Origin: Zhouia amylolytica
Lineage (GTDB): Bacteria > Bacteroidota > Bacteroidia > Flavobacteriales > Flavobacteriaceae
Length of the DNA stretch: 24,000 nucleotides
Direction: 5' to 3'
Assembly (NCBI RefSeq): GCF_900116365.1
Contig: NZ_FPAG01000004.1
Location: forward strand, 235,935-259,934
Made by a program: the position numbers and the translations under genes
Notes under the pieces: generated by a model
Told to the model about the DNA's origin: nothing
The model's input: the letters and a program-made list of their open reading frames with translations, nothing else
The model's database searches: none
In this document: piece by piece, positions 8,694 through 15,833 of the stretch
How the letters are laid out: each line of letters opens with the position of its first letter
Numbering within the stretch: position 1 is the stretch's first letter

Positions 8694-8747
8694 CAGAAAA
8701 GTTTTTTGCTAATATATTATTTAATTGAATGTTGATTACATTTGCGT

Positions 8748-9902
8748 ATGCCTAAGTTCCCAACAAAGCTTCAACAGAAAATAGATGAGCGCATTAGAAA
8801 TAATGCCCTCCGGGTATTGCCGGGTCTGAGTGATCATATAGATTTTTCTTCCAATGATTATTTAGGATTTTCTAAAGCGTCTTCCATTTTTAATGAGGCA
8901 GGTGCTATTTTAGAACGAACAGTTTCTCAATCTAATGGAGCTACCGGGTCCAGGTTAATTTCGGGCAATCATAAATTGTATGGTAAGGTTGAGGCCTTAT
9001 TGTGTGATTTTCACAATGCCGAGGCCTCGGTTGTTTTCAATTCGGGATACGATGCTAATATCGGTTTGTTTTCAAGTGTGCCTCAGAGGGGTGATGTTAT
9101 TTTATATGATGAATTCATTCATGCGAGTATCCGTGATGGCATTCAGATGAGCAATGCCAGGGCCTATAAGTTTAAGCATAACGATCTCGAGAATCTCGAA
9201 ATGTTAATGGGGAAGAATGTAGATGGGGTTAAGGAAGTGTATGTGGTTACAGAATCGGTCTTTTCGATGGATGGTGATGCTCCTGATTTGAAAAAGATGC
9301 TCGAAATAGTGGAACGAAGTGATGCGCGTTTAATTATAGACGAGGCACATGCCCTTGGGGTAATTGGAGAAAAGGGAGCTGGGATGTCGCAATATTTGGG
9401 ATTGGAAAGCAGGGTTTTTGCCAGAGTGGTAACTTTTGGGAAGGCTATGGGTTGTCATGGAGCTGCGGTACTCGGATCCTCTGAATTAATAACTTATCTG
9501 TTAAATTTTGCGCGCAGTTTGATCTATACAACTGCATTGCCTCCACATTCATTGGCGACTATATTAGCCTCTTACGGGAAACTTAAAAGTTTAGGAGCCG
9601 GTGACAGTCAATTATTGAAGTTGCTTAATAATATTGCTTTTTTCAAATCTGAGGTGTTACACAAGGGATTAAAAGAACATTTTATTGATAGTGATTCAGC
9701 GATCCAATGTTGTGTGATTCCGAGTAATGATAAGGTCAAGTTAATAGCTGCTCAACTTCAGGAAAAAGGATTTGGGGTTAAGGCTATTTTGTCACCAACG
9801 GTTCCTGCTGGTGAAGAGCGATTAAGATTTTGTCTTCACGGCTATAATTCCACGGTTGAAATTTCGGAAGTGTTGGGCTTGTTGGCTACTTTTGTGGTTT
9901 AA
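8748..9902 (+). CDS. bioF: 8-amino-7-oxononanoate synthase
   Basis: Class II aminotransferase-like. SNDYLGF substrate motif, SVFSMDGD, PLP-lysine motif VVTFGKAMG. The ORF track starts at TTG 8742. The ATG at 8748 is two codons downstream and more likely. Confidence 0.9.
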   Translation: MPKFPTKLQQKIDERIRNNALRVLPGLSDHIDFSSNDYLGFSKASSIFNEAGAILERTVSQSNGATGSRLISGNHKLYGKVEALLCDFHNAEASVVFNSGYDANIGLFSSVPQRGDVILYDEFIHASIRDGIQMSNARAYKFKHNDLENLEMLMGKNVDGVKEVYVVTESVFSMDGDAPDLKKMLEIVERSDARLIIDEAHALGVIGEKGAGMSQYLGLESRVFARVVTFGKAMGCHGAAVLGSSELITYLLNFARSLIYTTALPPHSLATILASYGKLKSLGAGDSQLLKLLNNIAFFKSEVLHKGLKEHFIDSDSAIQCCVIPSNDKVKLIAAQLQEKGFGVKAILSPTVPAGEERLRFCLHGYNSTVEISEVLGLLATFVV

Positions 9903-9911
9903 GAATCCGAC

Positions 9912-9952
9912 ATACTGAAATTGTTTCAGTGTCCCATTGTGATATACAATGG
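9912..9952 (+). promoter_or_regulatory. Two back-to-back perfect hairpins/palindromes immediately after the bioF stop
   Basis: HP1: ACTGAAA-ttg-TTTCAGT (9914-9930), extendable to 9912-9932. HP2: CCATTGT-gatat-ACAATGG (9934-9952). No U-tract follows, so this is not a canonical terminator. Confidence 0.6.
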
Positions 9953-10015
9953 AAGTTAGATTTAATTAAGCAAATGAATCCAACATTACAAATATTGAAT
10001 TATAAAATTGATGAG

Positions 10016-10036
10016 ATGCTGAAGTGAATTCAGCAT
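10016..10036 (+). promoter_or_regulatory. Perfect 8-bp-stem hairpin/palindrome 11 nt upstream of bioD
   Basis: ATGCTGAA-gtgaa-TTCAGCAT. Shares the core CTGAA-N5-TTCAG with HP1. The two centres (9922 and 10026) are 104 bp apart. Confidence 0.6.
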
Positions 10037-10047
10037 AACGATACCGT

Positions 10048-10671
10048 ATGAAAAGAAAAAAAATATTTGTTACCGGAATATCCACTGAAGTTGGTAAAAC
10101 GGTAATTTCTGCAATAGTTACTGAGGCCTTAAAGGCAGATTACTGGAAGCCAATCCAGGCTGGGGATCTTCATAATGCTGATGCTCATAAAGTAGAAAAG
10201 CTCATCAGTAATGAACAATCGATTATCCATCCAAATAGTTATGCGTTAAACACACCTATGAGTCCGCATGCGGCGGCAGAAATAGATGGAGTTACTATTG
10301 CTTTGGAGGAAATTATAGAACCGGAAACAAAGAATCATTTGGTGATTGAAGGTGCCGGTGGACTTTTAGTTCCTTTAAACGATAAAGACACCATTTTAGA
10401 TATCATTCAACCGTCATACAAGGTTATTGTTGTTTCGAGGCATTATCTGGGGAGTATTAATCATACATTGCTTACCGTAAAAGCATTGTTGGATAAAGGG
10501 TATGATGTGTCTATTATTTTTAGCGGAGATGAAAATTCGACTACTGAAAATATTGTAAAGAAAATGACTGAGGTGAAGGTAATCGGAAGGGTTTCAGAAG
10601 AGCCTTATTTTGATGAAAATGTGGTGAAGGAGTATGCAGAAAAATTTAGTAAAACTCTTCAGGAGTTATAA
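10048..10671 (+). CDS. bioD: Dethiobiotin synthetase
   Basis: 207 aa. P-loop GISTEVGKT (compare E. coli GTDTEVGKT), YWKPIQAG, EGAGG motif. Confidence 0.92.
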   Translation: MKRKKIFVTGISTEVGKTVISAIVTEALKADYWKPIQAGDLHNADAHKVEKLISNEQSIIHPNSYALNTPMSPHAAAEIDGVTIALEEIIEPETKNHLVIEGAGGLLVPLNDKDTILDIIQPSYKVIVVSRHYLGSINHTLLTVKALLDKGYDVSIIFSGDENSTTENIVKKMTEVKVIGRVSEEPYFDENVVKEYAEKFSKTLQEL

Positions 10672-10687
10672 TAATTAAAGAAATAAA

Positions 10688-11956
10688 ATGACATTACAGG
10701 AAAGAGATAAAGCTCATTTGTGGCATCCATTAACCCAGCATAAGGTAAAACCTGATGCTTTAGGAATAACCAAGGCAAAGGGCGCGTATTTGTATGATGA
10801 ACATGGAAAGGAGTATATAGATGGGATTGCCTCCTGGTATACCTGTATGTATGGGCATTGTAACCCCTTTATTACAGAGAAAGTAGCCCAACAAATGCAG
10901 ACCCTCGATCAGGTTGTGTTTGCAGGTTTTACTCATGAACCTGCTGTTAAGTTATCTGAAGCCTTAGTCTCCATATTACCAGGGAATCAACAAAAGCTGT
11001 TTTTTTCAGAAAATGGTTCTACTGCAGTGGATGTTGCCATAAAAATGGCCTTTCAGTATCATTTTAACGGGGGTGATAAAAGGGATACACTTATTGCTTT
11101 TGAAGATGGTTTTCACGGCGATACATTTGGCGCGATGTCTGTTTCCAGCCTGTCCGTATATAACGGACCTTTTGAAGATTTCTTTTTGAAAGTAATTCGA
11201 ATTCCGACTCCGGATGGAAGTAATAATGCAGATGTTGTTGAGAGGTTAAAACAGGTGATTGCTGAAAATAAAGTAGCTGCTTTTGTTTATGAGCCTTTAG
11301 TTCAGGGTGCCGCAGCTATGAAAATGTATGATTTAAATGGGTTGCAATCACTTTTAGCTTGTTGTAAAGAGAATGATGTCTTGACGATAGCGGATGAAGT
11401 GATGACAGGTTTTGGAAAGACCGGGAAAAACTTTGCTTCTGAATTTCTGGAAATTAAGCCTGACTTTATTTGTATGAGTAAGGCTTTGACGGCGGGTCTT
11501 TTGCCTATGGCGATTACTAGTTGTACTCAGGAAATATATGATGCGTTTTACGATGATGATATAGCTAAAGGTTTTTTTCATGGCCATACTTATACAGCTA
11601 ATCCATTAGCTTGTATGGCTGCATTGGCTGGAATTGAATTACTTGCTTCAGAGGATGTTCAGGGTAATATACAAATGGTCGTAGAGAGTCATCAGGAATT
11701 TGATCAAGAGATAAAGACTCATCCAAAAGTTGCCGGTACAAGGCAGCAAGGGGTTATTTATGCCTTGGATTTAAATATTAAAATGGAGCGCTACGGAAAT
11801 TTGCGTGATATGTTATTTAAGCATTTTATGGATCAAGGTGTCTTTTTACGTCCGTTAGGAAATACCATCTATATTCTAGCTCCTTATACTATTACGAAAA
11901 AGGAACTAGAAAAAATATACGATAGTATTAAATCAGCTCTTGATTTAGTTTTGTAG
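10688..11956 (+). CDS. bioA: Adenosylmethionine-8-amino-7-oxononanoate aminotransferase
   Basis: 422 aa, class III aminotransferase. HLWHP N-terminal motif, DEVMTGFGKTG, PLP-lysine region CMSKALTAG. Starts 16 nt after bioD. Confidence 0.92.
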   Translation: MTLQERDKAHLWHPLTQHKVKPDALGITKAKGAYLYDEHGKEYIDGIASWYTCMYGHCNPFITEKVAQQMQTLDQVVFAGFTHEPAVKLSEALVSILPGNQQKLFFSENGSTAVDVAIKMAFQYHFNGGDKRDTLIAFEDGFHGDTFGAMSVSSLSVYNGPFEDFFLKVIRIPTPDGSNNADVVERLKQVIAENKVAAFVYEPLVQGAAAMKMYDLNGLQSLLACCKENDVLTIADEVMTGFGKTGKNFASEFLEIKPDFICMSKALTAGLLPMAITSCTQEIYDAFYDDDIAKGFFHGHTYTANPLACMAALAGIELLASEDVQGNIQMVVESHQEFDQEIKTHPKVAGTRQQGVIYALDLNIKMERYGNLRDMLFKHFMDQGVFLRPLGNTIYILAPYTITKKELEKIYDSIKSALDLVL

Positions 11957-11966
11957 TAGTGAAAGC

Positions 11967-12392
11967 TTAAAATTCACTCTCCAGTAAAAATATGGTTTCA
12001 CCTGTGGCTTTAATTACGATATACATATCAGAATAGTTCCAGGTGTCTCCTTGTTTTGTTCCAACGATATAGAGGGAGGCTTTTCCTTTAGCACCTTCCA
12101 GCGGTACTTTGATGTCGATGTCTCCATGGTCGTTTTCATAATTGATTTTACCTTGGATCATACCTTCTTGTACAATTGGTTCGCCTAATGCTTCAATGAT
12201 TTGTTTGTTTTCTTTTACCCTTGTAATGGCTTCCTCATAGGGTGTTGAGCTTTTCATCATGGTACTGACACCAAAAAAGACCGTGCCTATAAAAACAACA
12301 ATGAAGATAATAATGGTAAGACAACCACCGGCAGGAATAACCCATTTCCAGTTTCTGCCCCACCAGCTTTTTTTGGGGGATAGTTCGTTCAT
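11967..12392 (-). CDS. Small single-pass membrane protein, Coa1-like (cytochrome oxidase assembly factor 1 family-like). Function uncertain.
   Basis: ORF on the opposite strand inside the bio cluster. N-terminal KKSWWGRNWKWVIPAGG followed by one hydrophobic helix (CLTIIIFIVVFIGTVFFGV), then a ~90-aa soluble domain. I place the start at ATG 12392 (MNELSPKK). The 19-codon extension in the track to 12449 would run through the divergent promoter. Confidence 0.6.
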   Translation of the reverse strand: MNELSPKKSWWGRNWKWVIPAGGCLTIIIFIVVFIGTVFFGVSTMMKSSTPYEEAITRVKENKQIIEALGEPIVQEGMIQGKINYENDHGDIDIKVPLEGAKGKASLYIVGTKQGDTWNYSDMYIVIKATGETIFLLESEF

Positions 12393-12415
12393 GTGATTTA
12401 GTAGGGTTTGTTTTA

Positions 12416-12434
12416 GGTATCTTCTTAAGATACC
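12416..12434. promoter_or_regulatory. Perfect inverted repeat GGTATCTT-ctt-AAGATACC in the divergent intergenic region. Candidate operator.
   Basis: 8-bp arms and a 3-bp spacer, read directly. Lies between the Coa1-like start (12392, minus) and the KAS-like start (12461, plus), 2 nt upstream of a TAnnTTTG box. Confidence 0.5.
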
Positions 12435-12436
12435 CT

Positions 12437-12444
12437 TAATTTTG
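12437..12444 (+). promoter_or_regulatory. Candidate -7 box TAATTTTG (TAnnTTTG) for the KAS-like/bioB transcription unit
   Basis: Exact consensus match 17 nt upstream of the TTG start. The nearest upstream TTTG (12407-12410) is 26 bp away, longer than usual -33/-7 spacing. Confidence 0.4.
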
Positions 12445-12460
12445 CCCAAAATACAAAAAA

Positions 12461-13615
12461 TTGAACAACAAGGTATCTATTAAGTCAATTGCTTCTGTTT
12501 CTCCGTTGGGAATTAAGGAAAATGAAATTTGGCAGAAGTATTTAAGTGATGAACATTGTTTAGAAGAAAGGGAGTTTGGAGAATTCAAAGCTATGGTTGC
12601 TCCATTAGCAGAGGGTGCAAAGCTTGAAATTGAAAAACTTAGGGTATCGGATCAGAAATATAAAGCGCTTGATGATACGGTATTATATGCCATGTATGCT
12701 GCAAGAATGGCGATGAAAGATGCCCATTGGAGCTCAGATGATAATTTTGGGGTCAATATGGGTTCATCGAGGGGAGCAACTGCGTTGTTTGAATCTTATT
12801 ATGAGGACTTTCTTTCAAGTGGTAAAACGGAAACCCTATGTTCACCAACAACTACTTTGGGCAACATATCCTCTTGGATAGCCCACGATTTACAAACTAA
12901 AGGGCCGGAAATTTCACATTCAATTACATGTTCTACGGCATTGCATGCTTTATTAAACGGAGTTGCCTGGATTAATTCAGGTATGACCAGCAAGTTTATG
13001 GTTGGTGGTAGTGAGGCTTCACTGACCCCTTTTACAATTGCCCAGATGAAGGCTCTTAAAATTTACTCCAGGGAGACTGATGCGTATCCTTGTAAGGCTT
13101 TAAACCCCGATAAACTGGGCAATACTATGGTTTTGGGAGAGGGTGCAAGTGTAGCTTGCCTTGAAAAGGGCGTGTCGGATAATGCCATAGCAATTATAGA
13201 AGGAGTTGGTTATGCTACCGAGGTGCTTCAGCATAATATTTCGATTTCAACGAACGCAGAATGTTTTCAACGTTCGATGAAAATGGCTTTGGGAAATACA
13301 AGCCCATCAGATGTAGACGTTATTGTTATGCATGCCCCCGGGACCAAAAAGGGCGACAGTTCAGAACTCAATGCCATTGAATTGGTTTTTGGAAACCAGC
13401 AGCCCGCATTAACAACCAATAAATGGAAAGTTGGGCATACCTTTGGAGCATCGGGAATGTTAAGCCTAGAGCTCGGAATAATGATGTTGCAGAAGCAAAA
13501 GTTTATTAATGTACCTTATTTAAATTCAAATATGGAGCCGGAGAAGATTAGAAAAGTGATGGTGAATGCAGTGGGCTTTGGGGGGAATGCGGTGAGTGTT
13601 CTTTTAAGCTTATAG
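12461..13615 (+). CDS. Stand-alone beta-ketoacyl-ACP synthase I/II-like (FabF/FabB-type) condensing enzyme embedded in the biotin cluster
   Basis: 384 aa, collinear with FabF. Active-site Cys in HSITCSTALH. First His in VIVMHAPGTKKGD (compare NAHGTSTPAGD). Lys/His in TTNKWKVGHTFGASG (compare STKSMTGHLLGAAG). C-terminal NAVGFGGNAVS. TTG 12461 is the only possible start, because there is an in-frame TAA at 12437-12439. Confidence 0.85.
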   Translation: MNNKVSIKSIASVSPLGIKENEIWQKYLSDEHCLEEREFGEFKAMVAPLAEGAKLEIEKLRVSDQKYKALDDTVLYAMYAARMAMKDAHWSSDDNFGVNMGSSRGATALFESYYEDFLSSGKTETLCSPTTTLGNISSWIAHDLQTKGPEISHSITCSTALHALLNGVAWINSGMTSKFMVGGSEASLTPFTIAQMKALKIYSRETDAYPCKALNPDKLGNTMVLGEGASVACLEKGVSDNAIAIIEGVGYATEVLQHNISISTNAECFQRSMKMALGNTSPSDVDVIVMHAPGTKKGDSSELNAIELVFGNQQPALTTNKWKVGHTFGASGMLSLELGIMMLQKQKFINVPYLNSNMEPEKIRKVMVNAVGFGGNAVSVLLSL

Positions 13616-13670: not shown

Positions 13671-13678
13671 TATTTTTG
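13671..13678 (+). promoter_or_regulatory. Candidate -7 box TATTTTTG (TAnnTTTG) upstream of bioB
   Basis: Exact consensus match in the 186-bp gap before bioB. It would give a leader of about 118 nt. No clear -33 element. Confidence 0.3.
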
Positions 13679-13801: not shown

Positions 13802-14905
13802 ATGACTGAGAACAGACACAATTGGACAAAAGAAGAAGTTTTAGCAATATATAATAAGCCACTGATGGAGTTGCTTTATGAGGCAGCAACGATACACAGA
13901 GAGCACCACGACCCGAATACGGTGCAGGTTTCTACTTTATTATCTATAAAAACCGGTGGTTGTCCGGAAGATTGCGGATACTGTCCACAAGCAGCCCGAT
14001 ATCATACTGATGTTGAGGGGAATGACCTGATGTCTGTTCAGCAAGTAAAAGCTCAGGCATTAAGGGCGAAACAAAGCGGGAGCTCGAGAGTATGTATGGG
14101 AGCAGCCTGGAGAAATGTAAAAGACGGACCGGAATTCGAAGAGGTATTGGAAATGGTACGTACCATCAATAAACTTGATATGGAGGTTTGTTGTACACTA
14201 GGGATGCTTACTGAAAATCAGGCTCAGCGTTTGGCAGAGGCTGGGTTATATGCTTACAATCACAACCTGGACACATCGGAAGAATACTATAAAGAAGTGA
14301 TTTCAACCAGAGGGTATGAAGACCGTTTACAGACTATTGATAACGTTCGTAAAACAAACGTAACTGTCTGTAGTGGAGGTATTATTGGAATGGGAGAGAA
14401 GTTGGAGGACAGAGCCGGGATGTTGGTGTCATTATCTACGTTAAATCCTCATCCTGAATCGGTTCCTATTAATGCTTTGGTTGCAGTTGAAGGTACGCCA
14501 ATGGAAGAACAGCAACCCGTAGAAATATGGGATATGTTGCGCATGGTAGCAACTACCAGAATCGTCATGCCAGAAACTCAGGTTAGGCTATCTGCAGGAC
14601 GAACGCAAATGAGCAGAGAAGGGCAGGCTATGTGTTTCTTTGCCGGGGCAAATTCTATTTTTGCAGGTGATAAATTATTAACAACTCCTAATCCTGATGT
14701 GAATGAGGATATGGAAATGTTTAAAATGTTAGGGCTTAATCCTCAAAAGCCATTTACGAAAAAAGTACAGCCGCAAACTACTGAAGCTGGCGACTCAAAG
14801 TATAAACCGTTAGGGGAAAAACCTAAATGGTCGCGTCCTGGTCATGTCATTGATAAAAATGAAGAGGCCAAAGCGAAAGCTCAGCATGCTAAAGCCGATA
14901 AGTAG
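13802..14905 (+). CDS. bioB: Biotin synthase (radical SAM)
   Basis: 367 aa. Radical-SAM cluster motif GGCPEDCGYCPQ. Collinear with E. coli BioB from WT..EV....KPL.ELL.EA through LGLNPQ. Has an extra Lys/Ala-rich C-terminal tail. Confidence 0.97.
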   Translation: MTENRHNWTKEEVLAIYNKPLMELLYEAATIHREHHDPNTVQVSTLLSIKTGGCPEDCGYCPQAARYHTDVEGNDLMSVQQVKAQALRAKQSGSSRVCMGAAWRNVKDGPEFEEVLEMVRTINKLDMEVCCTLGMLTENQAQRLAEAGLYAYNHNLDTSEEYYKEVISTRGYEDRLQTIDNVRKTNVTVCSGGIIGMGEKLEDRAGMLVSLSTLNPHPESVPINALVAVEGTPMEEQQPVEIWDMLRMVATTRIVMPETQVRLSAGRTQMSREGQAMCFFAGANSIFAGDKLLTTPNPDVNEDMEMFKMLGLNPQKPFTKKVQPQTTEAGDSKYKPLGEKPKWSRPGHVIDKNEEAKAKAQHAKADK

Positions 14906-14969: not shown

Positions 14970-15833
14970 ATGAGGTTGCAGAAAATACCCAGGGTAAAAA
15001 CAATAAGCAAAGAAGACTTTATTGAGAATTATCTAAGACCACAAAAGCCTGTGGTTATTGAGCAGCTGACGGCTGACTGGGATGCCTTTAATAAATGGAG
15101 TCTTGAATATATCTCTGAGATTGCGGGGGACAAAATTGTGCCTTTATATGACGATCGACCGGTAGACTATAAAGATGGATTTAATGAACCTCATGCCAAG
15201 ATGAGGATGAAAGATTATATAGATCTTTTAAAAACAGAGCCAACTGATTATCGCATCTTTCTTTATAATTTGATGAAAGAGGTGCCACAACTGCAAAAGG
15301 ATTTTAAATGGCCTGATATTGGATTGCGTTTAGTTAAGCAATTACCGATGTTATTTTTTGGCGGAGCGAATAGTAAAGTGTTTATGCATTTTGATATCGA
15401 CTATTCGAATATTCTTCATTTTCATTTTCATGGAAAGAAACGATGTGTCATTCTTCCTCCTGATCAGAGCAAATACTTGTACAAAGTACCGCATGCCTTA
15501 ATTTCCAGAGAAGATATAGATTTTGATAATCCGGATTATAAAAAATGGCCAGCGTTGAAATATGCAGAGGGCTATGTTACAGATTTAAATCATGGAGAAA
15601 TGCTTTTTATGCCAGAGGGATATTGGCATTATATGAAATATGTAACTCCCGGATTTTCAATGAGTTTACGGGCCTTTCCAAGGAAATTTTCAAATCTTGC
15701 GAAGGCAGCATATAATGTACTTGTGATGCGTCATTACGACAATTTAATGCGTAGGGTTCAGGGACAAGCCTGGATCGATAAAAAAAATGAAAAGGCTTTC
15801 GTGGAGACCCATAAGAAGTTGGGTATTAATTGA
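14970..15833 (+). CDS. JmjC/cupin_8-type Fe(II)/2-oxoglutarate-dependent oxygenase-like protein
   Basis: 287 aa. The N-terminus resembles JmjC proteins (F..NYL.P.KPVVI..L..DW.A..KW). Putative facial triad His140-x-Asp142 (FMHFDID) and His220 (GYWHYMKY), with the ~80-residue spacing seen in FIH-type enzymes. Confidence 0.7.
   Translation: MRLQKIPRVKTISKEDFIENYLRPQKPVVIEQLTADWDAFNKWSLEYISEIAGDKIVPLYDDRPVDYKDGFNEPHAKMRMKDYIDLLKTEPTDYRIFLYNLMKEVPQLQKDFKWPDIGLRLVKQLPMLFFGGANSKVFMHFDIDYSNILHFHFHGKKRCVILPPDQSKYLYKVPHALISREDIDFDNPDYKKWPALKYAEGYVTDLNHGEMLFMPEGYWHYMKYVTPGFSMSLRAFPRKFSNLAKAAYNVLVMRHYDNLMRRVQGQAWIDKKNEKAFVETHKKLGIN

What the first reader, a model, noticed from the sequence alone, without database searches (positions are those of the whole stretch)
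12461..13615. Catalytically intact FabF/FabB-like condensing enzyme in the biotin cluster: candidate non-canonical pimeloyl-thioester synthase
The cluster encodes all four late biotin enzymes (bioF, bioD, bioA, bioB). I can recognise no gene for the pimeloyl moiety in this window: no BioC methyltransferase, no BioH/G/K/J/V esterase, no BioW, no BioI, and no KAS III-type BioZ. Directly upstream of bioB is a 384-aa KAS I/II-type protein that keeps the full decarboxylative-condensation triad. The Cys is in SITCSTALH, one His is in MHAPGTKKGD, and the Lys and second His are in KWKVGHTFGASG. It is therefore not a chain-length-factor-type dead paralogue. It is shorter and more divergent than housekeeping FabF. 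It is forced to use a TTG start, with an in-frame TAA 24 nt upstream. It appears to have its own promoter and operator. The precedent is alpha-proteobacterial BioZ, a FabH-like enzyme that condenses glutaryl-CoA with malonyl-ACP to feed pimeloyl-ACP synthesis. A KAS I/II-type enzyme doing an analogous dedicated step would, to my knowledge, be uncharacterised. I cannot verify that against the literature or databases here.
Basis: partly seen in the sequence, partly recalled or inferred. Interest (0 to 1): 0.7.

Follow-up and report, generated by a model that had tools for sequence, protein, structure and literature searches.

The report
Biotin-operon ketosynthase with arginine-capped pocket
A divergent but catalytically intact FabF-like condensing enzyme sits in the biotin gene cluster of Zhouia and many other Bacteroidota, has an arginine-lined polar acyl pocket, and is a strong untested candidate for the missing step that makes the pimelate part of biotin.

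Summary
Window 12461-13615 (+) encodes a 384-aa KAS I/II-fold protein of Zhouia amylolytica with Cys157, His291, Lys321, His326 and Phe373 intact. It has an obligatory TTG start and lies between bioA and bioB. It is not the housekeeping FabF: it scores 150 bits against a FabF cutoff of 494 and is 20-29% identical to FabF.

Its link to biotin genes is conserved. bioA lies directly upstream in 78 of 79 Flavobacteriaceae genome loci and in 51 of 75 distant or metagenomic loci. These include Cytophagales, a Marinimicrobia MAG and a proteobacterium-like MAG. Gene order varies, and bioA and the KAS gene often overlap by 4 bp.

In 138 family representatives the FabF "back-gate" residue Ile108 is always Arg. 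The neighbouring hydrophobic pocket residues are Ser, Thr or Gln.

My best reading is a BioZ-like job done on a KAS II scaffold: an omega-carboxy primer, most likely glutaryl, is condensed with malonyl-ACP to give 3-oxopimeloyl-ACP.

No BioC, BioH, BioG, BioW, BioI, BioZ or BioE gene is in the window or in 170 related loci. Genome-wide absence could not be tested. Desulfovibrio DVU2563 is a partial precedent. I found no paper describing this family.

The parts
12461..13615 (+). Bio-cluster KAS I/II-type condensing enzyme, 384 aa, TTG start
   Evidence: ORF and translation. PF00109 and PF02801. 100% identical to a Zhouia amylolytica protein. AF2 model pLDDT 96.5, FabF fold with TM 0.90.
12770..12772 (+). 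Codon AGG = Arg104, aligned to FabF Ile108 (back gate of the acyl pocket)
   Evidence: Invariant in 138/138 and 70/70 family representatives. The same pairing appears in the HMMER alignment to Listeria FabF. Role of I108 from PMC9006962.
12842..12862 (+). Motif S128-P-T-T131-T132-L-G134, replacing FabF V134-P-S-T-I138-V-N140
   Evidence: At least 96% conserved in the family and hydrophobic in FabF.
12929..12931 (+). Codon TGT = catalytic Cys157 (FabF C163)
13043..13045 (+). Codon CAG = Gln195 (FabF G201, next to gate residue F202, which is Met196 here)
   Evidence: 99% conserved in the family.
13331..13333 (+). Codon CAT = His291 (FabF H303)
13421..13438 (+). Lys321 ... His326 (FabF K335, H340)
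13577..13579 (+). Codon TTT = Phe373 (FabF F400 gatekeeper)
12437..12444 (+). TAATTTTG, a Bacteroidetes-type -7 promoter box (TAnnTTTG) 17 nt before the TTG start; its first three bases are the in-frame TAA
   Evidence: Sequence. Motif enriched upstream of KAS orthologues, 35/81 against bioA 1/79 and bioD 7/76. This is a pattern match only.
12416..12434 (.).
   Evidence: Unique in the window and not conserved upstream of the KAS gene in relatives. Function unknown.
8742..9902 (+). bioF (a likelier start is ATG 8748)
   Evidence: TIGR00858 at 338 bits is the best hit, below the equivalog cutoff.
10048..10671 (+). bioD
   Evidence: TIGR00347 above cutoff.
10688..11956 (+). bioA
   Evidence: TIGR00508 at 541 bits.
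11967..12449 (-). Coa1-like small membrane protein inserted between bioA and the KAS gene (a likelier start is ATG 12392)
   Evidence: PF08695. Present at this position in only 9/80 related loci.
13802..14905 (+). bioB
   Evidence: TIGR00433 at 408 bits.
13671..13678 (+). TATTTTTG, a -7-box-like motif upstream of bioB
   Evidence: The 8-mer is present upstream of bioB in 51/75 loci.

Best explanation
The gene encodes a dedicated biotin-pathway condensing enzyme. It is a KAS II (FabF)-fold protein with full Cys-His-His/Lys/Phe machinery. Its fatty-acyl pocket has been converted into a short, polar, positively charged pocket. It is inferred to load a short omega-carboxy acyl primer on Cys157, most likely glutaryl from glutaryl-CoA or glutaryl-ACP. 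The free carboxylate would be held by Arg104, Gln195 and the Ser/Thr lining. The enzyme would then condense the primer decarboxylatively with malonyl-ACP to give 3-oxopimeloyl-ACP. Ordinary FAS II enzymes (FabG, FabZ, FabI) would reduce that to pimeloyl-ACP, the BioF substrate. Functionally this is a BioZ analogue built on a KAS II rather than a KAS III scaffold, and it needs no BioC methyl-ester disguise. Shown: gene integrity, fold, catalytic residues, the invariant pocket substitutions, and conserved membership of bio operons. Inferred: the substrate, the product and the dispensability of BioC/BioH.
For: (1) Operon membership. bioA lies within 1.5 kb upstream on the same strand in 78/79 Flavobacteriaceae genome loci and in 51/75 distant or metagenomic loci at 36-67% identity. 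This holds with different gene orders and unrelated flanks. L083 and L086 have bioF-D-A-KAS-bioB. L084 and L088 (Pontibacter) have bioB-F-D-A-KAS. L089 is a Marinimicrobia MAG and L090 a 'Deltaproteobacteria' MAG. bioA and the KAS gene overlap by 4 bp in L081, L083, L084 and L086. (2) It is the only conserved extra gene. No bioC/H/G/W/I/Z/E-type gene is in the window, inside any of the 80 clusters, or in the Pfam-annotated distant loci. (3) It is not the housekeeping enzyme: 150 bits against the fabF cutoff of 494, 20-29% identity to E. coli FabF, and a separate acpP-fabF pair in L084. (4) The catalytic residues are all invariant. (5) The pocket is changed. FabF I108 is Arg in 138/138 representatives, V134 is Ser, I138 is Thr and G201 is Gln. 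I108/F202 form the gate at about C7-C8 of a bound acyl chain, and I108F limits loading to about C6 (PMC9006962). An Arg there is therefore placed to meet the terminal carboxylate of a C5 diacid. (6) BioZ holds the glutaryl omega-carboxylate with Ser side chains (PMC12625853), which is a chemically parallel solution. (7) In L089 the operon abuts a kynurenine/ACMSD/aminomuconate-type gene set (Pfam-based reading). By textbook knowledge that pathway ends in glutaryl-CoA.
Against: There is no experimental datum. Absence of bioC plus an esterase, or of bioW/bioI/bioZ/bioE, elsewhere in the Zhouia genome could not be checked. KAS I/II enzymes normally take acyl-ACP primers, and no enzyme making glutaryl-ACP or glutaryl-CoA is encoded in the cluster. 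About 20 of 75 distant family members lie outside bio clusters. Within Flavobacteriaceae the whole neighbourhood (atpDC ... recX) is syntenic, so those 78 loci are not independent evidence.
Confidence: 0.55

Rival explanations
1. Desulfovibrio-type iterative route. The enzyme elongates a free-carboxyl malonyl thioester twice (C3 to C5 to C7) with malonyl-ACP and no methyl ester. FAS II reductases are borrowed for both rounds, so no external glutaryl source is needed.
For: It is a KAS I/II-type enzyme in a bio cluster, like DVU2563, which is genetically required for biotin synthesis in an organism lacking bioC/bioH (PMC10102598). The cationic, polar pocket would also suit C3 and C5 diacid primers. 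No glutaryl-CoA-forming gene is in the cluster.
Against: The Desulfovibrio cluster carries a dedicated ACP, a FabG-like gene and two FabZ-like genes. None of these accompanies the KAS gene in any of the 170 loci examined. Textbook KAS chemistry says a malonyl group on the active-site Cys tends to be decarboxylated. Orthology to DVU2563 was not tested.
Confidence: 0.2
2. Helper of a canonical BioC-BioH route. bioC and an esterase lie elsewhere in the genome, and this enzyme is a specialised KAS that elongates malonyl- and glutaryl-ACP methyl esters, which the host FabF/FabH handle poorly.
For: Genome-wide absence of bioC/bioH is untested. In 4 of 170 loci (L020, L027, L072, L156) an alpha/beta-hydrolase gene sits between the KAS gene and bioB.
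Against: No BioC-like gene was found in 2.6 Mb of flanks (a weak test). The hydrolases are proline-iminopeptidase-family proteins: about 135 bits to that family against about 40 bits to BioH, whose cutoff is 207. The L020 copy has a signal-peptide-like N-terminus, and they are rare. An invariant Arg plus a Ser/Thr/Gln lining suits a charged carboxylate better than a neutral methyl ester. Known BioC organisms use their housekeeping KAS (PMC12704756).
Confidence: 0.12
3. An ordinary secondary FabF/FabB paralogue, or an enzyme of another pathway, whose position next to bio genes is inherited synteny without functional meaning.
For: The Flavobacteriaceae neighbourhood is syntenic as a whole. About a quarter of distant members are not next to bio genes. 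Unrelated genes have been inserted into the cluster (flotillin/NfeD, a PMT-like protein, Coa1).
Against: The linkage persists across orders and phyla with changed gene order and changed flanks, and with overlapping stop and start codons. The pocket is incompatible with long hydrophobic chains. It is the only constant non-bioFDAB member.
Confidence: 0.06

Closest known systems
BioZ (alpha-proteobacterial KAS III-type 3-ketoacyl-ACP synthase; glutaryl-CoA + malonyl-ACP -> 3-oxopimeloyl-ACP)
   Same: It is a single extra condensing-enzyme gene embedded in the bioFDAB cluster of organisms where no BioC/H/W/I gene is seen nearby. The proposed chemistry is the same. Both use polar residues to hold an omega-carboxylate, Ser84 and Ser287 in BioZ (PMC7645780; PMC12625853).
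   Different: It belongs to a different branch of the thiolase superfamily. It has the KAS I/II domains PF00109/PF02801 with a Cys-His-His triad plus Lys, not the FabH-type Cys-His-Asn triad. The carboxylate-binding candidate is an invariant Arg at the FabF back gate. The taxonomic range is different (Bacteroidota, Marinimicrobia). Function is untested.
Desulfovibrio vulgaris DVU2563 (FabF-like KAS in the extended bio cluster)
   Same: It is a KAS I/II-type gene inside a bio cluster in an organism lacking bioC/bioH. A methyl-ester-free pimeloyl-ACP synthesis has been proposed for it (PMC10102598).
   Different: DVU2563 comes with a dedicated ACP, a FabG-like gene and two FabZ-like genes (plus a nitroreductase elsewhere). 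Here the KAS gene stands alone. DVU2563 has genetic evidence and this family has none. The sequence relationship and the residue at position 108 were not compared.
Housekeeping FabF/FabB (KAS II/I)
   Same: The fold is the same (TM 0.90 to P. aeruginosa, Listeria and B. subtilis FabF). So are the two domains, the catalytic Cys-His-His, Lys335, Phe400, Asp311 and Glu314.
   Different: Identity is only 20-29%. It scores 150 bits against the FabF equivalog cutoff of 494. It lacks the FabF 353-366 loop. I108 is Arg, V134 is Ser, I138 is Thr, G201 is Gln and T305-S306 are Pro-Gly. It is encoded in bio operons and not next to acpP.
BioE (ferritin-like diiron oxygenase) and BioI (P450)
   Same: They are alternative non-canonical solutions to the pimeloyl step. 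BioE occurs in the sister family Weeksellaceae and reportedly in some Flavobacteriaceae (PMC12704756, PMC12915131).
   Different: They are unrelated folds with unrelated chemistry: oxidative C7-C8 cleavage of long acyl chains against Claisen condensation. No ferritin-like or P450 gene is in the window.

Membership tests
KAS I/II elongating condensing enzymes (thiolase fold) | N- and C-terminal ketoacyl-synthase domains | tested here: met
   PF00109 at 1.5e-22 and PF02801 at 2.6e-16.
KAS I/II elongating condensing enzymes (thiolase fold) | Cys-His-His triad with Lys335 and gatekeeper Phe400 | tested here: met
   C157, H291, H326, K321 and F373 are invariant in 138 representatives.
KAS I/II elongating condensing enzymes (thiolase fold) | FabF-like three-dimensional fold | tested here: met
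   AF2 pLDDT 96.5. Foldseek TMq 0.88-0.91 to FabF structures.
Housekeeping FabF (TIGR03150 equivalog) | Score above the curated equivalog cutoff | tested here: not met
   150.4 bits against a cutoff of 493.75. No NCBIfam KAS model reaches its cutoff.
Housekeeping FabF (TIGR03150 equivalog) | Hydrophobic acyl pocket with an Ile108/Phe202 back gate | tested here: not met
   Arg104 and Met196, with Ser128, Thr132 and Gln195. Gate definition from PMC9006962.
Chain-length factor / KS-beta (inactive paralogue) | Loss of the active-site Cys (usually Gln) and of the His residues | tested here: not met
   Cys and both His residues are retained, so it is not a CLF.
BioZ | KAS III (FabH-like) sequence with a Cys-His-Asn triad | tested here: not met
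   KAS I/II domains and a Cys-His-His triad. BioZ definition from PMC7645780.
BioZ | Gene clustered with bioFDAB | tested here: met
BioZ | Condenses glutaryl-CoA with malonyl-ACP; rescues E. coli bioC/bioH mutants | not testable with these tools
   Needs enzymology and genetics.
Desulfovibrio-type bio-cluster FAS module | KAS accompanied by a dedicated ACP plus FabG- and FabZ-like genes in the bio cluster | tested here: not met
   None of these is found next to the KAS gene in 170 loci.
Desulfovibrio-type bio-cluster FAS module | Orthology to DVU2563 | not tested
BioC-BioH route | SAM methyltransferase BioC and a pimeloyl-ACP methyl esterase encoded in the organism | tested here: inconclusive
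   Absent from the window and from the flanks of 170 loci. The rest of the genome could not be searched.

The most novel reading that the evidence does not exclude
This family is a previously undescribed route to the pimelate moiety of biotin. It would be a stand-alone KAS II-type 'BioZ analogue' with an arginine-capped pocket that condenses a free omega-carboxy primer with malonyl-ACP. It would explain how Flavobacteriaceae, many Cytophagales and Sphingobacteriales, and some Marinimicrobia make biotin without BioC/BioH, BioW/BioI, BioZ or BioE. Flavobacteria are counted among the main marine biotin producers.
Probability: 0.5. Interest if true: 0.78.

Novelty: new variant of a known kind. Interest (0 to 1): 0.72.

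Why it matters
[quoted passage not shown] A curated survey found 74 gut species with BioFADB but no known pimeloyl source (PMC6593275). As of late 2025, reviews of the field list only BioC-BioH, BioI/BioW, BioZ and BioE. Most marine Flavobacteria carry bioFADB and are regarded as primary biotin producers (PMC9561691). Yet their genome annotations call this gene only a generic 'beta-ketoacyl synthase N-terminal-like domain-containing protein'.

If the prediction holds, three things follow. It fills that gap for a large and ecologically important group. It corrects automated prototrophy and auxotrophy calls. And it gives a second, independent case of a fatty-acid condensing enzyme retooled for a dicarboxylate, with a clear single-residue specificity hypothesis (Ile108 to Arg). 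The hypothesis is directly testable with existing E. coli bioC/bioH strains.

Tried and rejected
(1) Shared operator. I looked for the 12416-12434 palindrome or any common inverted repeat upstream of bioF, the KAS gene and bioB, in the window and in 80 relatives. None was found. The sigma-70 scan was uninformative, with 18 sites against 19.5 expected.

(2) A second conserved partner gene. Clustering of the ORFs inside the 80 clusters gave only these:
- a DUF2007 protein;
- NfeD-like and flotillin genes;
- a PMT-like glycosyltransferase;
- SET, DUF1398 and VF530 proteins;
- a rare secreted-looking alpha/beta-hydrolase.
None is universal. The unknown 550-aa neighbours in L085 and L088 are unrelated to each other.

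(3) 'Orphan' family members outside bio clusters share no alternative context.

(4) tblastn with E. coli BioC and BioH, both recalled from memory, against 2.6 Mb of loci gave no BioC hit. The only BioH hits were weak generic hydrolase matches.

(5) The Cupin_8 gene downstream of bioB is conserved in 64/80 Flavobacteriaceae loci. It is missing from the Pfam-annotated non-Flavobacteriaceae operons L083, L084, L086 and L088-L090, so it is not treated as part of the system.

(6) Rfam and tRNA scans of the window were empty.

- the afdb50 fold search, because the library was not installed;
- the 2021 FEMS biotin review, which is not held;
- model coordinates for distance measurements;
- the DVU2563 sequence.
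Full report
**What is there.**

The window comes from Zhouia amylolytica (Flavobacteriaceae): the translated ORF is 100% identical to a protein of that species. ORF 12461-13615 (+) starts with TTG. An in-frame TAA lies 24 nt upstream, and homologues align from residues 1-5. The next in-frame Met is residue 45, so TTG is the only workable start.

The protein has both ketoacyl-synthase Pfam domains. The neighbouring genes are:
- bioF, 8742-9902;
- bioD, 10048-10671;
- bioA, 10688-11956;
- a Coa1-like small membrane protein on the opposite strand, 11967-12449;
- the KAS gene;
- bioB, 13802-14905;
- a Cupin_8 gene, 14970-15833.

The remaining ORFs of the 24 kb are:
- a TonB-dependent receptor-like protein and a lipoprotein-like protein, identified by reading their sequences only;
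- AtpD and AtpC, supported by Pfam annotation of the homologous genes in L081;
- an M61 peptidase, a Crp-like protein, a PanE-like protein, RluA, and CMD, DUF1348, AraC, DUF985, AlkD-like and RecX proteins.

None of these resembles BioC, BioH/G/K/J/V, BioW, BioI, BioZ or BioE.

**It is a real, active-looking condensing enzyme, but not FabF.**

I aligned it with E. coli FabF. I recalled that sequence from memory; its residues C163, I108, H303, K335, H340 and F400 fall at the literature numbering. On this alignment the protein keeps Cys157, His291, Lys321, His326, Phe373, Asp299 and Glu302.

An AlphaFold2 model built on a 70-sequence family alignment has mean pLDDT 96.5. It superposes on FabF structures with TM 0.88-0.91 at only 20-25% identity.

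The best NCBIfam hit is fabF at 150 bits, against a curated cutoff of 494, and no KAS model reaches its cutoff. The best solved structure by sequence is FabF at 95 bits. By contrast, the 150 nearest 50%-identity cluster representatives score 237-550 bits. One carrier genome shows a separate acpP-fabF (416 aa) pair 10 kb from its bio-KAS operon (L084).

**The link to biotin genes is conserved well beyond local synteny.**

In 80 Flavobacteriaceae genomes the order bioF-bioD-bioA-KAS-bioB(-Cupin_8-recX) is kept. bioA lies within 1.5 kb upstream in 78 of 79 evaluable loci. That block is syntenic as a whole, so the distant cases carry more weight:

| Locus | Member and identity | Arrangement |
|---|---|---|
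| L081 | P0204, 39% | bioF-D-A-KAS-bioB, bioA/KAS overlap of 4 bp |
| L083 | P0173, 42% | same operon, unrelated flanks |
| L084 | P0153, 43% | bioB-F-D-A-KAS |
| L086 | P0262, 39% | bioF-D-A-KAS-bioB, overlaps on both sides |
| L088 | Pontibacter korlensis | bioB-F-D-A-KAS |
| L089 | Marinimicrobia MAG | bioB-F-D-A-[FA_hydroxylase]-KAS |
| L090 | 'Deltaproteobacteria' MAG | bioF-D-A-KAS-[Acs-like] |

Over 75 evaluable distant or metagenomic loci (36-67% identity), 51 have bioA directly upstream and 55 have some bio gene. About 20 members lie elsewhere, with no shared alternative context. Named carriers include Cellulophaga, Zobellia, Flavobacterium, Kordia, Pontibacter, Adhaeribacter, Solitalea, Pelobium and Bacteroidales MAGs.

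Inside the clusters no other gene is constant. The insertions are a DUF2007 protein, NfeD-like and flotillin genes, a PMT-like glycosyltransferase, and Coa1, SET, DUF1398 and VF530 proteins.

**The acyl pocket is rebuilt.**

In 138 representatives the residue aligned to FabF Ile108 is Arg without exception. The same is true in a 70-sequence and a 38-sequence tool alignment. HMMER pairs the same residues independently: GSSRGA against GSGIGG.

Other family-specific near-invariant changes are:
- V134 to Ser128;
- I138 to Thr132;
- N140 to Gly134;
- A160 and A162 to Ser154 and Thr156;
- L197 to Phe191;
- G201 to Gln195, with the gate partner F202 mostly Met;
- T305-S306 to Pro-Gly.

[quoted passage not shown] A six-carbon chain reaches that gate. 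The I108F mutant mainly elongates C6 to C8 because longer acids cannot load (PMC9006962).

An invariant Arg at this gate, backed by Gln, Ser and Thr, should close the pocket to long hydrophobic chains. It should also offer a salt bridge at the depth reached by the terminal carboxylate of a C5 diacid. BioZ, the KAS III enzyme that uses glutaryl-CoA, anchors the same carboxylate with Ser84 and Ser287 (PMC12625853).

This step is inference from alignment and literature. I could not measure distances in the model.

**Most likely mechanism.**

Glutaryl (or another short omega-carboxy acyl) is loaded on Cys157. It is condensed decarboxylatively with malonyl-ACP to give 3-oxopimeloyl-ACP. FAS II then reduces that to pimeloyl-ACP for BioF. 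A single added gene is what the BioZ route needs. The Desulfovibrio module, in contrast, brings its own ACP, FabG and FabZ genes (PMC10102598), and these are absent here.

Glutaryl-CoA could come from lysine or tryptophan catabolism. In L089 the operon lies beside genes that I read, from their Pfam families, as a kynurenine/ACMSD/aminomuconate pathway. This is a single anecdote.

The rivals are:
- an iterative methyl-ester-free elongation from malonyl;
- a helper role in a BioC/BioH route encoded elsewhere;
- a functionally unrelated paralogue.

**Regulatory details.**

In Zhouia the divergent Coa1-like gene separates the KAS gene from bioA, so the KAS gene needs its own promoter. TAATTTTG at 12437-12444 matches the Bacteroidetes -7 consensus TAnnTTTG, which I know from the literature on Bacteroidetes promoters. 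The motif lies within 64 nt upstream of the KAS gene in 35/81 loci. For comparison it is upstream of bioF in 52/74, bioB in 48/75, bioD in 7/76 and bioA in 1/79.

The palindrome at 12416-12434 is unique and not conserved. TTG is the start codon at the orthologous position in 51 of 90 loci, which suggests deliberately weak translation.

**Novelty.**

The accessible literature lists BioC-BioH, BioI/BioW, BioZ and BioE, plus the genetically supported Desulfovibrio module. Searches combining biotin, pimeloyl, ketoacyl and Flavobacteria or Bacteroidetes terms found no description of this family. Databases name it only generically. The paper library is incomplete, so prior description in a subscription journal cannot be excluded.

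I rate it a new variant of a known kind: a condensing enzyme recruited to pimelate synthesis, on a different scaffold and with a different specificity device.

Noticed in passing
window 12461-12463; L001-L090 KAS starts: The weak TTG start codon of the KAS gene is conserved. At the orthologous start position the counts are 51 TTG, 7 GTG and 32 ATG among 90 loci, and TTG is often the only candidate. This suggests selection for low translation.
   Followed up: partly
L089:8738-9994 and L089:11334-20580: In a Marinimicrobia MAG a membrane fatty-acid-hydroxylase-family (PF04116) gene sits between bioA and the KAS gene. The operon also abuts genes carrying Pfam families that I read as kynurenine formamidase, KMO, kynureninase, ACMSD, 3-HAO, RidA and an aldehyde dehydrogenase. 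That would be a tryptophan catabolic branch ending in glutaryl-CoA.
   Followed up: no
L090:11269-13215: An acetyl-CoA-synthetase-like AMP-binding enzyme (ACAS_N + AMP-binding, 648 aa) lies directly downstream of the KAS gene in a bioF-D-A-KAS operon of a 'Deltaproteobacteria' MAG. It is a possible primer-activating enzyme, or just a neighbour.
   Followed up: no
window 14970-15833; L001-L080: A Cupin_8 (JmjC-like) gene follows bioB on the same strand in 64/80 Flavobacteriaceae loci. It is absent from the Pfam-annotated non-Flavobacteriaceae bio-KAS operons (L083, L084, L086, L088-L090). Function unknown.
   Followed up: partly
L001:6159-6539 and 62 other loci: A roughly 126-aa DUF2007 protein with a C-terminal Cys-rich motif is encoded between bioF and bioD in 63/80 Flavobacteriaceae loci. 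It is missing in Zhouia, where the gap 9903-10047 is only 145 nt.
   Followed up: partly
L020:11179-12147, L027, L072:13532-14500, L156:1726-2688: A proline-iminopeptidase-family alpha/beta-hydrolase of about 320 aa lies between the KAS gene and bioB in 4 loci. The L020 copy has a signal-peptide-like N-terminus. It scores about 40 bits to BioH against a cutoff of 207. It is probably unrelated, but BioH substitutes are notoriously diverse.
   Followed up: partly
L006:8790-9377 and L011, L017, L026, L047: A 195-aa SET-domain (SAM methyltransferase fold) protein is inserted between bioA and the KAS gene in the Joostella, Galbibacter and Sinomicrobium loci, together with DUF1398 and VF530 genes in L006, L011 and L026.
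   Followed up: no
window 11967-12449 (-): A Coa1-like (PF08695) small membrane protein gene is inserted divergently between bioA and the KAS gene in Zhouia and in 9/80 relatives. This splits the operon. Elsewhere the gap between the bioA match and the KAS start is mostly 0-30 nt.
   Followed up: partly
L002:11226-13238 and 31 other loci: An NfeD-like plus flotillin (Band_7) gene pair is inserted between the KAS gene and bioB in 32/80 Flavobacteriaceae loci. So the KAS-bioB adjacency seen in the window is not the conserved feature.
   Followed up: yes
(P0325, P0382, P0389): Several Pontibacter and Adhaeribacter members of this KAS family are mis-named 'beta-ketoacyl-ACP reductase' in public annotation.
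   Followed up: no
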